NCBI RefSeq assembly: GCF_054482525.1
Contig: NZ_JBTHVG010000005.1
Direction: 5' to 3' (one strand)
DNA from: a plasmid
DNA: 4,049 bases
The notes under the pieces are model-generated. The model had not been told where the DNA came from and made no database searches. It was given only the letters and a program-made list of their open reading frames with translations. Both the position numbers and the translations under genes were made by a program. Positions 1 to 4,049 of the stretch are shown here, one piece after another. Position 1 is the first letter of the stretch. Each line of letters starts with the position of its first letter.

Positions 1-126
1 AACAGGAAGGATGCGTCAGGATCGTTTTCAGCTCGCTGCATAGCTATGCATGAAAGCGAATGGTGATCACTTTGGGAGCTTACGGTGTTCATACCGTCTG
101 TTTTCGACAGTTTTCTCTCCGGGAAG

Positions 127-474
127 CTAATCTGCCATAAGCCTGGATAACAGGGCACGGTGATACTCCGTAATAGCGATCAGCACCTCCGCATACTCCC
201 TGTCCCCGACACGCTTGCCGTCGATAAAGAGTTTTTTCTGTAACGCCCCCAGTCTCATAACTTCTTTCAGTACCCGATCATCAGTCAGTGAGTTAACTTT
301 CTTACCGAGAGCTGCCGCCCGTAAAAAACCGGAAACGGTCTTGCCGCATTCAGCAGCCCTTTTTCTGATTTCCTGGTCTTCTTCTGCCGTCAGACGAACA
401 GGGCGACTGATAGCCCGCCTGCGCGTATTACTTCCACTTCGTTTTGTCATAAAACATGGCTCCGTATCTGACAT
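127..474 (-). CDS. mobC: MobC-family plasmid mobilisation (relaxosome accessory) protein
   Basis: 115-aa ORF whose core (RLTAEEDQEIRKRAAECGKTVSGFLRAAALGKK...) resembles the MobC/MbeC family of small relaxosome proteins. It reads away from the adjacent bom/oriT-like sequence. An alternative start at M9 (ATG at 450) is preceded by GGAG at about 9 nt spacing and may be the true start. Confidence 0.8.
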   Translation of the reverse strand: MSDTEPCFMTKRSGSNTRRRAISRPVRLTAEEDQEIRKRAAECGKTVSGFLRAAALGKKVNSLTDDRVLKEVMRLGALQKKLFIDGKRVGDREYAEVLIAITEYHRALLSRLMAD

Positions 475-560
475 GGGTGTCGGGGCAAAGCCCTGACCAG
501 GGCAATTGTAATAGCGTGCATGTATGCGCGGTATAACAATTGCACATCCTGTCCTGTCAG
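475..560. other. bom/oriT-like transfer origin region (ColE1 type), nick position not determined
   Basis: Begins GGGTGTCGGGGC, which matches my recollection of the pBR322/ColE1 bom region, followed by the hairpin GCCCTG-acc-CAGGGC (~489-502) and the imperfect inverted repeat GCAATTGTAATA...TATAACAATTGC (~502-543). Lies immediately upstream of mobC. By analogy to the ColE1 nic region the nick would fall near 531/532, but this is not verified. Confidence 0.55.
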
Positions 561-733
561 CAAGCTCGAATTACCGACAAAGGCACGGCAGTTTTTTGGC
601 AGTGACAGTGTTGTCTGACAGAAATGCCCGTCAAAAAGCCAAGCGGCAGAATAGCGGCAGCAAAACAGTCGAAAAGTGGTACGCGATATAATCACACAAC
701 GCAGATGACAGACAGAACGGAGAAAACGAAAAG

Positions 734-928
734 ATGAACAAGCAGCAGCAAGCCGTACTCAACATGGCGGGATTCATAAAAAGTCAGAGCCTGACGCTGC
801 TCGAAAAACTGGACGCACTCAATGCCGACGAACAGGCCGCCATGTGTGAGAAACTGCACGAACTCGCAGAAGAACTCCAGAACAGCATACAGACACGCTT
901 TGAAGCGGAAAATCTTACCGGGATATAA
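734..928 (+). CDS. rop: Rop/Rom (RNA one modulator) protein, copy-number control
   Basis: 64-aa ORF MNKQQQAVLNMAGFIKSQSLTLLEKLDALNADEQAAMCEKLHELAEELQ... closely parallels ColE1/pMB1 Rop (recalled as MTKQEKTALNMARFIRSQTLTLLEKLNELDADEQADICESLH...). A GGAG Shine-Dalgarno lies about 8-13 nt upstream of the ATG (acggagaaaacgaaaagATG). Confidence 0.9.
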   Translation: MNKQQQAVLNMAGFIKSQSLTLLEKLDALNADEQAAMCEKLHELAEELQNSIQTRFEAENLTGI

Positions 929-1580: not shown

Positions 1581-1685
1581 ACAAGTTTTGGTGACTGCGC
1601 TCCTCCAAGCCAGTTACCTCGGCTCAAAGAGTTGGTAGCTCTGAGAACCTTCGAAAAACCGCCCTGCAAGGCGGTTTTTTCGTTT
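1581..1685 (+). ncRNA. RNAI: RNA I antisense copy-number control RNA
   Basis: ACAAGTTTTGGTGACTGCGCTCCTCCAAGCCAGTTACCTCGGCTCAAAGAGTTGGTAGCTCTGAGAACC...GCGGTTTTTTCGTTT parallels ColE1-family RNA I (pMB1: ACAGTATTTGGTATCTGCGCTCTGCTGAAGCCAGTTACCTTCGG...). It ends in a GC hairpin plus T-run. Confidence 0.85.
1656..1685 (+). terminator. RNA I intrinsic terminator (hairpin plus T-run)
   Basis: aaaaaCCGCCctgcaaGGCGGttttttcgttt: GC-rich stem CCGCC/GGCGG followed by six T. Confidence 0.7.
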
Positions 1686-1763: not shown

Positions 1764-1967
1764 TTATACCTTTTGAATCGCTACAGCTTTAAACCCTTTA
1801 TCTGTTTTTTCTAATTTAAACCTAACTAAAATACCTTTACATATATCGACATCATGCCCTAAAAACAAAAAATCATCATACCGAAAGAAAACATCACGTC
1901 CACGCTCACGCCTTATAAAGCCATACCCTTTAACATGGTCATAAAAATTAACAAATCCATTTTCCAT
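1764..1967 (-). CDS. Cold-shock-domain (CspA-like) small nucleic-acid-binding protein; candidate retron effector/accessory protein
   Basis: Core GFVNFYDHVKGYGFIRRERGRDVFFRYDDF aligns to the CspA fold (GxVKWFNxxKGFGFI...DVFVHF) with RNP1-like KGYGFI and RNP2-like VFFRY. The ATG at 1967 lies 4 nt after the RT stop (TGA 1972-1974) and is preceded by AGGTGA, indicating translational coupling. The longest ORF extends to an upstream ATG at 2021 (85 aa) overlapping the RT 3' end; the true start is uncertain. Confidence 0.8.
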   Translation of the reverse strand: MENGFVNFYDHVKGYGFIRRERGRDVFFRYDDFLFLGHDVDICKGILVRFKLEKTDKGFKAVAIQKV

Positions 1968-1971
1968 ATAA

Positions 1972-3111
1972 TCACCTATCTGGAAGTAATGCCACGAGCT
2001 TACGTCTATATAGTTTTGCAAGATTCTTATTAGTCCGCCCTACTATATCAAAATCATAGAGCATCCTATCTATTTTCCTAATCTGATCATCAGTTAAAGG
2101 CGGCGTAAACTTATTTAGATAGTGCTTAGCCATCAACTTTAATTTAGATATCTTGTAATCATCATAAACTGGCATTATCTCAGAAAGAATCGCCCTCAAT
2201 TCAACCGCCTGGACATGCCCAAGCCTCGACATTTGAGCAACCTTGCCAGAGCATCTATTCCATAAATCATGGTACTCTTTCGTATGACGTTCATAAGCAC
2301 CTTGTTTTTTACATATATAAACTAAGTACCTGATATAACGTCTATTTTCTTTTGTTAACTTAGGAACACCATGCTTTACCCACAACCCAGTGACACTAAG
2401 TTTAGAAGACGAATCTTTTGAGTGCTCTATCGTTGTCTTACTTTCATTTATTGAAAGTCTGTACTGATTCACCATTCCGTGAACGAGTTTTATTACTTTT
2501 GTTTTTTCCTCTGATGAAAGATCCTTATCAGAGGATATAGTAATATCATCTAAAAGCCTTGAATATGAAAGCCCCATAGACTTCAATCTATTATAGAGAT
2601 TATACTCACTATTAAAAAATAAAAGATTTGCAATATAACTAGAACAGCACCCACCCTGAGGGACCTTATTATTCAACGTCACAAGTTCCGTTAAGCATAA
2701 AGAAACATCAGGAGAAAAACGCATTAAATTTTTAAAAATAGAACAAACATCTTTTTTACTAATGCTGGGATAAAAATTGGTGATATCAAGACATATAACT
2801 GTTCTTTTCCTAGTATGAACAGCGGCATTAGATATATAATCGCGACCACTTAACGCCCCATGCAAATAATGAGGGTAATCAATTTTCTCAAAAATCTCTT
2901 TATTTATTTTTTTTTGAATTCCTTTCAAAGATCTCTTGGGTTCAAAAATTTGCCTTTCTTTTTTATTCTTCCCTGTTTCAACCTTAAACTGCTTGTACGA
3001 CATCGATACAGACTTGACTATCCAGTCCAATCTTTTTCTTTCTATGCCTAACATCGCAGATAAAGAATCCAAAGATGCAACAGGAGTTCCATTAAACCTG
3101 GGTTTATTCAT
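1972..3111 (-). CDS. Retron-type reverse transcriptase
   Basis: 379-aa ORF with RT motifs in order: NAxxH-like SNAAVH (res 95-99), motif A CLDITNFYPSI (catalytic D109), motif B VPQGGCCSSYIANLLF, motif C YSRLLDDITIS (D188, D189) and VTG (res 240-242). It aligns motif by motif with retron Ec86 RT as I recall it (IDLEDFFPSL / LPQGAPSSPKLANL / YTRYADDLTLS / RKVTGLVI). The ATG lies 7 nt after the a2 repeat. Confidence 0.9.
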   Translation of the reverse strand: MNKPRFNGTPVASLDSLSAMLGIERKRLDWIVKSVSMSYKQFKVETGKNKKERQIFEPKRSLKGIQKKINKEIFEKIDYPHYLHGALSGRDYISNAAVHTRKRTVICLDITNFYPSISKKDVCSIFKNLMRFSPDVSLCLTELVTLNNKVPQGGCCSSYIANLLFFNSEYNLYNRLKSMGLSYSRLLDDITISSDKDLSSEEKTKVIKLVHGMVNQYRLSINESKTTIEHSKDSSSKLSVTGLWVKHGVPKLTKENRRYIRYLVYICKKQGAYERHTKEYHDLWNRCSGKVAQMSRLGHVQAVELRAILSEIMPVYDDYKISKLKLMAKHYLNKFTPPLTDDQIRKIDRMLYDFDIVGRTNKNLAKLYRRKLVALLPDR

Positions 3112-3684: not shown

Positions 3685-3921
3685 TCAAATCAACTCAGCT
3701 ACAAAGGCCATAACAACAATCCCAACCTCAGCATCGGCACTCAGGATAATTTTTGAACTAGCATCTCTTAAATTCTGACCGTCAAAGGTTGCTACTTTTT
3801 TTAAAGAGGCATCCCTTAAAACCTTGCCATCAAAAGTCGCTATTTTTCTCGAAAAGGCATCTCTTAAGGTTTTACCGTCAAACCGAGCAACGGTTTTTAA
3901 GTCATTGTTTTTATTGAAATA
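3685..3921 (-). pseudogene. Open frame encoding 16-aa tandem protein repeats with a hydrophobic C-terminus; no canonical start codon, so a possible decayed gene or non-canonical initiation
   Basis: Minus-strand frame from the TAA at 3922-3924 to the TGA at 3685-3687 translates to YFNKNNDLKTVARFDGKTLRDAFSRKIATFDGKVLRDASLKKVATFDGQNLRDASSKIILSADAEVGIVVMAFVAELI*. Differences between repeat copies are largely synonymous third-position changes (GCT/GCG/GCA, GAC/GAT, GGT/GGC, AGA/AGG, AAA/AAG). No ATG, GTG or TTG precedes the repeats; the nearest ATG (3903-3905) is offset by 1 nt and gives M-T-stop. Confidence 0.3.
3761..3904. repeat. Three tandem, diverged 48-bp direct repeats
   Basis: Units at 3761-3808, 3809-3856 and 3857-3904 each begin GCATC(T/C)CTTAA and share an (A/G)CC(G/A)TCAAA block and a T-run; identity is roughly 65-75%. 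Confidence 0.85.
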
Positions 3922-3955
3922 TTAATTTCTCACCAATAGTAATTTAACCAATTGT

Positions 3956-3985
3956 ATTTACCATAATCCCTTAATTGTACGCACC
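3956..3985 (-). other. cer: cer-type XerC/XerD site-specific recombination core (plasmid multimer resolution site; accessory arm extends toward and past the window end)
   Basis: Minus strand reads GGTGCGTACAA-TTAAGGGA-TTATGGTAAAT, matching the ColE1 cer core (XerC arm, 8-bp central region, XerD arm) as I recall it. Accessory sequences would lie on the XerC side at 3986-4049 and beyond. Confidence 0.8.
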
Positions 3986-4049
3986 GCTGAAACGCGCTGA
4001 ACGCGATTCTGACGCAGACACCGCAAAAAGAGATGTTTTACCCCGGGAA

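What the first reader, a model, noticed from the sequence alone, without database searches (positions are those of the whole stretch)
1..126. mobC and a bom/oriT-like site are present, but no relaxase gene follows; possible 8-codon relaxase remnant
In ColE1-type mob modules the relaxase gene follows mobC/mbeC. Downstream of mobC (minus strand, window 126 to 1) a short reading frame GTG ATC ACC ATT CGC TTT CAT GCA TAG (70-44) encodes (M)ITIRFHA-stop, reminiscent of the ColE1 MbeA N-terminus as I recall it (MIVKFHARG...), then terminates. No frame continuing to the window edge resembles a relaxase. One frame is open from about 92 to the edge (MNTVSSQSDHHSLSCIAMQRAENDPDASFL...) but looks unrelated. 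The plasmid may have lost its relaxase and depend on one supplied in trans.
Basis: partly seen in the sequence, partly recalled or inferred. Interest (0 to 1): 0.45.

Follow-up and report, generated by a model that had tools for sequence, protein, structure and literature searches.

The report
Plasmid dimer-resolution site, not relaxase remnant
The stretch after the mobilisation gene is the accessory arm of a ColE1-type (cer) plasmid dimer-resolution site, not a broken relaxase gene, and the plasmid belongs to a well-described group that carries only an R64-like transfer origin plus the helper protein NikA and borrows its relaxase from a large IncI-type plasmid.

Summary
The window is a complete circular plasmid of about 4.05 kb, so "beyond the window start" is simply the window end.

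The module is not ColE1-type. The "mobC" gene is a NikA homologue, 53% identical to NikA of IncI-complex plasmids. The oriT at 473-557 is 81-85% identical to IncI-complex oriT.

The 8-codon frame at 70-44 exists but is not a relaxase remnant:
- It shares only the 8-mer TTTCATGC with the mbeA start.
- Its start codon is absent in all seven other related sites compared.
- It lies inside a cer-type Xer site.

That site has a core at 3956-3985 identical to the ColE1 core. A palindrome at 35-52 sits where ColE1 has its ArgR box (114 versus 113 bp from the core). Homology to cer-like sites of plasmids that have no annotated nikA beside the site runs through window ~115-1.

This is the published NikA/NTP16 plasmid group (Moran & Hall 2017). 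It includes pMUT1, pU302S and NTP16; the last two were mobilised by IncI1 plasmids. Already known; low interest.

The parts
127..474 (-). nikA. It encodes a ribbon-helix-helix relaxosome accessory protein. The longest ORF is 115 aa; relatives are annotated from the internal ATG at 450 (107 aa).
   Evidence: ORF list. 52.9% identity, E 2.8e-33, to IncI-complex NikA. NCBIfam NF041264 at 112.7 bits, above the cutoff of 80. Same protein as in pMUT1 and pU302S.
473..557 (+). R64/IncI-complex-type oriT. It has an inverted repeat with 20-nt arms at 502-521 and 524-543. This is followed by the conserved nick region CACATCCTGTCC at 544-555; the nick position itself is inferred from the IncP/IncI consensus YATCCTG|Y, recalled from my own knowledge.
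   Evidence: 81-85% identity over 85 bp to the region upstream of nikA in two IncI-complex plasmids. Alignment A1. Inverted repeat. Literature: about 78% identity to R64 oriT, with 20-bp repeats (PMC9282650).
1..116 (-). Distal part of the accessory arm of a cer-type multimer resolution site. By analogy this is the ArgR/PepA-binding region. It continues at 3986-4049 across the circular junction, and it is essentially the whole interval the finding refers to.
   Evidence: Alignment with ColE1 cer. Cer-like sites of plasmids with no annotated nikA next to the site share query positions 43-229, i.e. window 87 downward, at 84-86% identity. A multiple alignment extends the similarity to about window 115. 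The arm is about 180 bp in cer (PMC5357621; PMC2655662).
35..52 (-). ARG-box-like element CATGCATAGCTATGCAGC, which contains the perfect 14-bp palindrome TGCATAGCTATGCA at 37-50. It is the positional equivalent of the ColE1 cer ArgR box GTTGCATAGGTATTCATA.
   Evidence: Distance to the XerC arm is 114 bp here and 113 bp in ColE1. It matches 10 of 16 specified consensus positions (my count) against 12 of 16 for ColE1. It is conserved in all cer-like sites aligned. ArgR binding is inferred, not tested.
44..70 (-). It is not a gene and not a relaxase remnant. Its last four codons, TTT CAT GCA TAG, overlap the left half of the ARG-box-like element (from CAT onward).
   Evidence: Coordinates. The start codon is GTG only in the window and pMUT1; it is CCG or CAG in pU302S, NTP16 and L007-L011. 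Only the 8-mer TTTCATGC is shared with the ColE1 mbeA start.
3986..4049 (-). Proximal part of the cer accessory arm. It includes a short GC hairpin followed by a T run, CGCGTTCAGCGCGTTT (3990-4005), at the position of the equivalent ColE1 element.
3956..3985 (-). Xer core site. XerC arm GGTGCGTACAA (3985-3975), 8-bp central region TTAAGGGA (3974-3967), XerD arm TTATGGTAAAT (3966-3956).
   Evidence: The core is identical to the ColE1 cer core. Backbone homology with pMUT1, pU302S and NTP16 stops at the outer end of the XerD arm, at window 3955-3956.
1..30 (-). Possible Pcer/Rcd equivalent, weakly supported. A -35-like ATGCAT lies just upstream at 51-46, with a 15-bp spacer to a -10-like TGAAAA at 30-25. 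The left arm of a conserved long stem, CCTGACGCA, follows, and the putative RNA would run on across the junction to about 3990.
   Evidence: Conserved stem CCTGACGCA...TGCGTCAGA plus a terminal hairpin in an RNAalifold consensus of 8 cer-like sites. The generic sigma-70 scan finds no promoter here. The position of ColE1 Pcer is recalled from my own knowledge, not checked.
1583..1683 (+). RNAI of the ColE1-type replicon. This places RNAII on the minus strand, the same direction as the cer/rcd-like element, which is the arrangement reported for ColE1-like plasmids.
   Evidence: Rfam RF00106 at 94.6 bits. 84% identity to the ColE1 origin. Orientation rule from PMC2831885.

Best explanation
Window 1-126 is not coding. 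About 116 bp of it is the distal accessory arm of a cer-type Xer multimer resolution site. The rest of that site (3956-4049) lies at the other end of the window, because the window is a complete circular plasmid.

By analogy with ColE1 cer, host ArgR would bind the palindrome at 35-52 and PepA the flanking DNA. This would synapse two directly repeated sites in a plasmid dimer, so that XerC/XerD resolve it at the core (3956-3985).

The site starts about 10 bp after the stop codon of nikA, just as ColE1 cer starts right after mbeA. The mobilisation module consists only of an R64-like oriT and NikA. In the proposed model NikA binds the oriT inverted repeat and recruits the NikB relaxase and transfer apparatus of a co-resident IncI-complex plasmid.

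Shown here:
- sequence homology, spacing and architecture of the site;
- absence of any relaxase;
- identity with the published NikA/NTP16 plasmid group.

Inferred:
- ArgR and PepA binding, and resolution activity at this particular site;
- the NikA-NikB interaction.
For: - The plasmid is circular and complete.
- No relaxase is present: tblastn with ColE1 MbeA gives best E about 1 and with NikB best E 3.6. NCBIfam scans of ORFs of 60 aa or more return only the retron RT, the Se72 effector and NikA/MobA.
- NikA is 52.9% identical to IncI-complex NikA, and the oriT is 81-85% identical to IncI-complex oriT.
- The cer core is identical to the ColE1 core.
- The ARG-box-like palindrome is at the same distance from the core as in ColE1, 114 versus 113 bp.
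- Cer-like sites of plasmids with no annotated nikA beside the site are homologous through window ~115-1.
- nikA is followed directly by this site in most relatives: 340 of 421 plasmid records cover at least 80% of window 1-600.
- Neither the short frame nor the 56-aa frame is conserved as an ORF.
- Literature: the NikA group lacks NikB, NTP16 was mobilised by R64 and pU302S by IncI1. pMUT1 is annotated with Cer next to NikA. Cer consists of a 30-bp core plus an accessory arm of about 180 bp bound by ArgR and PepA.
Against: - The ARG-box-like element matches the E. coli ARG-box consensus less well than the ColE1 box does (10 versus 12 of 16 positions), and ArgR binding is untested.
- PepA sites cannot be recognised from sequence.
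- Resolution activity was not shown for this exact site variant in anything I could read.
- The peptide resemblance to MbeA is nominally uncommon (39 of 5000 shuffles).
- No standard promoter was detected for an Rcd-like RNA.
Confidence: 0.93

Rival explanations
1. The 8-codon frame at 70-44 is the decayed 5' end of an MbeA-type (ColE1, MOB-HEN) relaxase gene that once followed the accessory gene.
For: IRFHA versus VKFHA at the MbeA N-terminus, a local score reached by only 39 of 5000 shuffles. In ColE1 the relaxase gene does start at the end of the accessory gene.
Against: - At DNA level only the 8-mer TTTCATGC is shared.
- The frame lies inside a conserved cer accessory arm that is also found in plasmids with no annotated nikA beside the site.
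- The start codon is missing in pU302S, NTP16 and L007-L011.
- The accessory protein and oriT are IncI-type, so the cognate relaxase would be NikB-like, not MbeA-like.
- ColE1 has both mbeA and its own ARG box at the equivalent cer position.
Confidence: 0.02
2. A historical reading compatible with the main explanation. The oriT-nikA module was captured from an IncI-complex-like oriT-nikA-nikB operon and nikB was lost long ago, leaving cer abutting nikA with no detectable remnant.
For: In IncI-complex plasmids nikB starts 10 bp after nikA. NikA and oriT are clearly homologous to the IncI-complex ones. All close NikA relatives sit on small contigs without a relaxase.
Against: There is no NikB-like sequence anywhere and no DNA similarity downstream of nikA. 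With 53% protein identity the split is old, and direct capture of nikA alone cannot be excluded. This says nothing about the function of 1-126.
Confidence: 0.3
3. One of the frames across the site is a real small protein: either the 8-codon frame, or the 56-aa frame that runs 92..1 and 4049..3971 and may correspond to the 'hypothetical protein' listed under this stretch in CP148311.1.
For: The 56-aa frame is open in the window and in pMUT1. A 'hypothetical protein' is listed alongside mobA under the nikA-stop-to-cer-core query in CP148311.1; I did not check that it is this frame.
Against: The frame is cut to 19 aa in pU302S and NTP16 and to 19-37 aa in other cer-like sites. It has no family match. 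It overlaps a functional DNA site whose conservation explains the sequence.
Confidence: 0.03

Closest known systems
NikA / NTP16 group of small ColE1-like plasmids (Moran & Hall 2017, Plasmid 89:42). Members include NTP16, pU302S, pCERC7 and pMUT1 of E. coli Nissle 1917.
   Same: - ColE1-type RNAI/RNAII replicon with rop.
- oriT-nikA-cer block 94% identical to pU302S and NTP16 and 99.6% identical to pMUT1 over about 714 bp.
- No nikB.
- A variable cargo segment that begins exactly at the outer end of the Xer core.
   Different: Only the cargo differs. Here it is the retron Se72 cassette, rather than the aph(3')-Ia/TEM resistance genes or the pMUT1 genes. The Xer core is ColE1-identical (8-bp central region) here and in pMUT1, whereas pU302S and NTP16 have a different core with a central region one base shorter.
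ColE1 cer (Xer-cer multimer resolution site with ArgR and PepA accessory factors and the Rcd checkpoint RNA)
   Same: - 30/30 identical core.
- Accessory arm of about 180 bp.
- Palindromic ARG-box-like element at the same distance from the core.
- Same orientation relative to RNAII.
- Site starts immediately after the last mobilisation gene.
   Different: The accessory arm is strongly diverged from ColE1: blastn aligns only about 58 bp, the core plus 28 flanking bases. The arm belongs to a different cer subfamily shared with many small Escherichia, Klebsiella and Salmonella plasmids. The ARG box matches the consensus less well, and the -10-like hexamer is poorer, so Rcd expression is uncertain.
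R64 (IncI1) oriT-nikA-nikB relaxosome module
   Same: oriT with an inverted repeat and the conserved nick region CACATCCTGTCC. The NikA ribbon-helix-helix protein is 53% identical.
   Different: nikB (the MOBP relaxase) is absent, and the inverted-repeat arms are longer (20 nt).
   Same: A small accessory protein gene sits next to oriT in a ColE1-type replicon. According to PMC9282650, NikA and MobC/MbeC are distantly related ribbon-helix-helix proteins; I did not test this here.
   Different: There is no MbeA, MbeB or MbeD, and no homology to ColE1 oriT or mbe DNA. The accessory protein groups with NikA rather than MbeC.

Membership tests
ColE1-type (MbeA / MOB-HEN) mobilisation module | MbeA-type relaxase gene following the accessory gene | tested here: not met
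   tblastn of ColE1 MbeA against the circularised window gives best E about 1. Only an 8-nt match to the mbeA start.
ColE1-type (MbeA / MOB-HEN) mobilisation module | ColE1-type oriT/bom sequence | tested here: not met
   blastn of the whole ColE1 against the window matches only the origin, rop and the cer core. The oriT aligns with IncI-complex oriT instead.
NikA / NTP16 plasmid group | NikA protein essentially identical within the group and about 53% identical to IncI1 NikA | tested here: met
   328 plasmid records at 99% identity or more. 52.9% identity to IncI-complex NikA. Literature figure of 53%.
NikA / NTP16 plasmid group | R64-like oriT with 20-bp inverted repeats next to nikA | tested here: met
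   PMC9282650.
NikA / NTP16 plasmid group | No NikB or other relaxase on the plasmid | tested here: met
NikA / NTP16 plasmid group | Multimer resolution site downstream of nikA with variable cargo adjacent to it | tested here: met
   Homology with pMUT1, pU302S and NTP16 ends at window 3955-3956, the outer end of the XerD arm.
NikA / NTP16 plasmid group | Mobilisation by an IncI-complex helper plasmid | not testable with these tools
   Shown experimentally for NTP16 (R64) and pU302S (IncI1) only. Inferred for this plasmid.
cer-type Xer multimer resolution site | Core of an 11-bp XerC arm, a 6-8 bp central region and an 11-bp XerD arm | tested here: met
   GGTGCGTACAA-TTAAGGGA-TTATGGTAAAT at 3985-3956, identical to ColE1.
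cer-type Xer multimer resolution site | Accessory arm of about 180 bp on the XerC side, with an ArgR box about 110 bp from the core | tested here: met
   Palindrome at 35-52, 114 bp from the core against 113 bp in ColE1. The arm is conserved across cer-like sites. The consensus match is only 10 of 16 positions.
cer-type Xer multimer resolution site | ArgR/PepA-dependent, XerCD-catalysed resolution of dimers | not testable with these tools
   Requires in vivo resolution assays or in vitro binding.
cer-type Xer multimer resolution site | Pcer promoter and Rcd RNA within the site | tested here: inconclusive
   A conserved long stem and terminal hairpin appear in an alignment of 8 sites. No promoter was found by the generic scan, and Rfam has no matching family at the gathering threshold.

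The most novel reading that the evidence does not exclude
The perfect 14-bp palindrome TGCATAGCTATGCA replaces a canonical ARG box in this cer subfamily. It could be read by a regulator other than ArgR, or bind ArgR differently, giving these NikA-group plasmids altered control of dimer resolution or of the Rcd checkpoint. A second possibility is that the sharp cargo boundary at the XerD arm reflects ongoing Xer-mediated swapping of modules such as the retron between small plasmids.
Probability: 0.08. Interest if true: 0.35.

Novelty: already known. Interest (0 to 1): 0.08.

Why it matters
The result matters mainly as a correction. The interval is a regulatory DNA site for plasmid dimer resolution, not gene debris. 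The "missing relaxase" is the normal, published design of a widespread plasmid group that rides on IncI-type conjugative plasmids.

It is also a caution for annotation. PGAP names the accessory protein "MobA", and PLSDB/MOB-suite types relatives as carrying a "MOBF relaxase". Both can suggest a self-sufficient mobilisation system that is not there.

In practice, it means the retron Se72 defence cassette on this plasmid can spread wherever an IncI-complex helper is present.

Tried and rejected
- **Relaxase search.** tblastn of ColE1 MbeA and of two NikB proteins against the doubled (circularised) window gave nothing better than E about 1.
- **Homology downstream of nikA.** DNA comparison of the region downstream of nikA with the IncI-complex nikA-nikB junction shows homology in oriT and, more weakly, in nikA, and none after the stop codon.
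- **Intermediate NikA homologues.** I looked for homologues at 60-90% identity that might still carry a relaxase. The large protein search returned only close relatives and truncated variants on small contigs. The seven plasmid records in the 60-80% identity band were not individually inspected.
- **Rfam.** The gathering-threshold scan found only RNAI, with no Rcd or msr family hit.
- **Promoter and terminator scan.** No sigma-70-type promoter was found for an Rcd-like RNA. The scan requires a 16-18 bp spacer, so it would miss a 15-bp-spacer promoter of the kind I recall for Pcer.
- **ARG-box consensus scoring.** On its own this is not discriminating, because AT-rich cargo DNA scores as high. 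The assignment rests on position and homology.
- **Primary papers.** Rychlik et al. 2001 (PMC99502) is not held in the library. Moran & Hall 2017 was not read directly; I cite it only through papers that describe it.

Full report
**What the window is**

Megablast against PLSDB shows 16 plasmid records that cover at least 80% of the window (the top dozen about 97-100%) at about 98% identity. Most of these are circular plasmids of 4.02-4.15 kb from E. coli, Salmonella and Shigella. A fragment spanning window 620..1 joined to 4049..3900 aligns without any gap to the circular record NZ_CP103484.1. The window is therefore a complete plasmid opened at an arbitrary point. "Beyond the window start" is the window end.

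The layout is as follows:

| Feature | Coordinates |
|---|---|
| Accessory gene (nikA) | 127-474 (-) |
| oriT | 473-557 |
| rop | 734-928 (+) |
| ColE1-type origin, with RNAI at 1583-1683 (+) | about 960-1725 |
| Retron Se72 effector | 1764-2021 (-) |
| Retron reverse transcriptase | 1972-3111 (-) |
| Xer core site | 3956-3985 (-) |

**Check of the observation**

The frame GTGATCACCATTCGCTTTCATGCATAG is at 70-44 on the minus strand.

The similarity is limited to IRFHA versus VKFHA. Its local score of 23 is reached by 39 of 5000 dinucleotide shuffles of 1-126. At DNA level the only shared string with the mbeA start is the 8-mer TTTCATGC. By my arithmetic about 0.2 such matches are expected by chance between stretches of 120 and 135 nt.

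**No relaxase anywhere**

- tblastn of ColE1 MbeA and of two IncI-complex NikB proteins against the doubled window gives no hit better than E about 1.
- NCBIfam scans of ORFs of 60 aa or more return only a retron-type reverse transcriptase, the Se72-family effector and the accessory protein.

**The mobilisation module is IncI-type, not ColE1-type**

- The 115-aa protein is 52.9% identical (E 2.8e-33) to NikA of IncI-complex plasmids. It passes the NCBIfam "MobA" equivalog model NF041264 at 112.7 bits against a cutoff of 80.
- Across PLSDB its homologues fall into two sets. One is a tight set at 95% identity or more on small plasmids (381 records). The other, below 60%, is mostly on conjugative plasmids and is led in the listed rows by IncI-complex NikA.
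- In the two IncI-complex plasmids examined, nikB starts 10 bp after nikA. NikB begins VNAVIPKKRRDG as translated from its GTG start codon, which is unlike the short frame.
- Window 475-557 is 81-85% identical to the oriT upstream of IncI-complex nikA. It has an inverted repeat with 20-nt arms (502-521 and 524-543) and the conserved nick region CACATCCTGTCC.
- ColE1 shares no oriT or mbe sequence with the window.

**What 1-126 really is**

The 30-bp ColE1 cer core GGTGCGTACAA-TTAAGGGA-TTATGGTAAAT is present unchanged at 3985-3956 on the minus strand. In cer, an accessory arm of about 180 bp bound by ArgR and PepA lies on the XerC side of the core (PMC5357621; PMC2655662). On this circular plasmid that arm is 3986-4049 followed by 1 to about 116.

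- A local alignment with ColE1 cer runs from the ColE1 ARG box (TGCATAGGTATTCATACG) to the core. It places the window palindrome TGCATAGCTATGCA (50-37) at the equivalent position, 114 bp from the core against 113 bp in ColE1.
- A search with the stretch from the nikA stop to the core finds 2311 plasmids. Many have no annotated nikA under or beside the match, yet match query positions 43-229 (window 87 downward) at 84-86% identity. I fetched five of these.
- A multiple alignment shows the similarity continuing to about window 115. There ColE1 has the very end of mbeA and this plasmid has the end of nikA.

The interval in the finding is therefore almost entirely the distal accessory arm of a cer-type site. 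The codons TTT CAT GCA TAG of the "remnant" overlap the left half of the ARG-box-like element.

**Neither frame is a conserved ORF**

- In pU302S, NTP16 and five other cer-like sites the position of the GTG start is CCG or CAG.
- The 56-aa frame is cut to 19 aa in pU302S and NTP16. It is cut to 19-37 aa in L008-L010, and L007 and L011 have no equivalent ATG.
- The DNA is conserved but the reading frames are not, which is what a protein-binding DNA site predicts.

**Possible Rcd equivalent**

Between the ARG-box-like element and the core, eight aligned sites share a long stem (CCTGACGCA...TGCGTCAGA). They also share a short GC hairpin followed by T residues just before the XerC arm.

The hexamers ATGCAT (51-46) and TGAAAA (30-25) are 15 bp apart. 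They sit where I recall ColE1 Pcer to be, which is my own knowledge and was not checked. The generic promoter scan finds nothing here, and Rfam has no family for this RNA. I treat this as inconclusive.

The cer/rcd-like element and RNAII point the same way, as reported for all ColE1-like plasmids compared in that study (PMC2831885; RNAI strand).

**Comparison with what is known**

The oriT-nikA-cer block is 99.6% identical to pMUT1 of E. coli Nissle 1917 and 94% identical to pU302S and NTP16. In all three the homology stops at window 3955-3956, the outer end of the XerD arm.

This is the group defined by Moran & Hall (2017), as described in papers I could read:
- Small ColE1-like plasmids with the same NikA (53% identity to R64 NikA).
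- A conserved R64-like oriT with 20-bp repeats.
- No NikB.
- Various cargo segments adjacent to the multimer resolution site.
- NTP16 is mobilised by R64 (PMC9282650).
- pU302S was later shown to be mobilised by IncI1 plasmids but not by IncX plasmids (PMC8623487).
- pMUT1 is annotated with a Cer region next to NikA (PMC10859263).

The cargo here, retron Se72 (Retron-Sen1), has been known to be plasmid-borne since 2001 (Rychlik et al. 2001, as cited in PMC6868368).

**Verdict**

- The ColE1 framing and the "relaxase remnant" are wrong.
- The stretch is the accessory arm of a cer-type dimer resolution site in a member of a well-described plasmid group.
- Nothing here is new. Interest is low.

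Noticed in passing
window 1764-3111 (-): A complete retron Se72 (Retron-Sen1) cassette. The reverse transcriptase (1972-3111) gives NCBIfam retron RT hits. A cold-shock-domain effector (1764-2021) passes the Se72 effector model at 84.2 bits against a cutoff of 82. This is the plasmid's cargo and is a known plasmid-borne retron.
   Followed up: partly
window 3685-3951 (-): A frame encoding three repeats of about 16 aa (…ATFDGKxLRDAS…) and a hydrophobic tail is annotated as an 89-aa hypothetical protein in NZ_CP103484.1. In the window a single mismatch creates an in-frame stop near its start. The underlying DNA carries 44-bp direct repeats of about 75% identity (3761-3804 and 3857-3900). It may correspond to the repeat-flanked 'hairpin-containing ORF' discussed for Retron-Sen1 (PMC6868368).
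   Followed up: partly
window 3955-3956 (outer end of the XerD arm): Homology with pMUT1, pU302S and NTP16 ends exactly at the outer edge of the Xer core. This fits exchange of cargo modules at the resolution site, as the title of Moran & Hall 2017 implies.
   Followed up: partly
window 3956-3985 compared with L012 (pU302S) and L013 (NTP16): The window and pMUT1 have a ColE1-identical core with an 8-bp central region. pU302S and NTP16 carry a different core (GGTGCGCGTAA-TGAGACG-TTATGGTAAAT, one base shorter) joined to the same accessory-arm subfamily. This suggests hybrid sites formed by recombination at the core.
   Followed up: no
PLSDB records for pMUT1 (L002), pU302S (L012) and NTP16 (L013): MOB-suite typing lists 'relaxase MOBF' for these plasmids, although none of their annotated features is a relaxase and published analysis finds no relaxase in this group. 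PGAP names the ribbon-helix-helix accessory protein 'plasmid mobilization protein MobA'. Both labels can mislead automated mobility calls.
   Followed up: no
window 82-97 (+): A terminator-like hairpin on the plus strand, ACGGTGTTCATACCGT followed by CTGTTTTCGA, lies within the cer accessory arm and points towards the 3' end of nikA. It could stop transcription entering nikA in antisense. Function unknown.
   Followed up: no
window 734-928 (+): The Rop ORF, annotated as Rop in all relatives, gave no NCBIfam hit at E of 0.01 or better. This is a minor gap in the database or in sensitivity.
   Followed up: no
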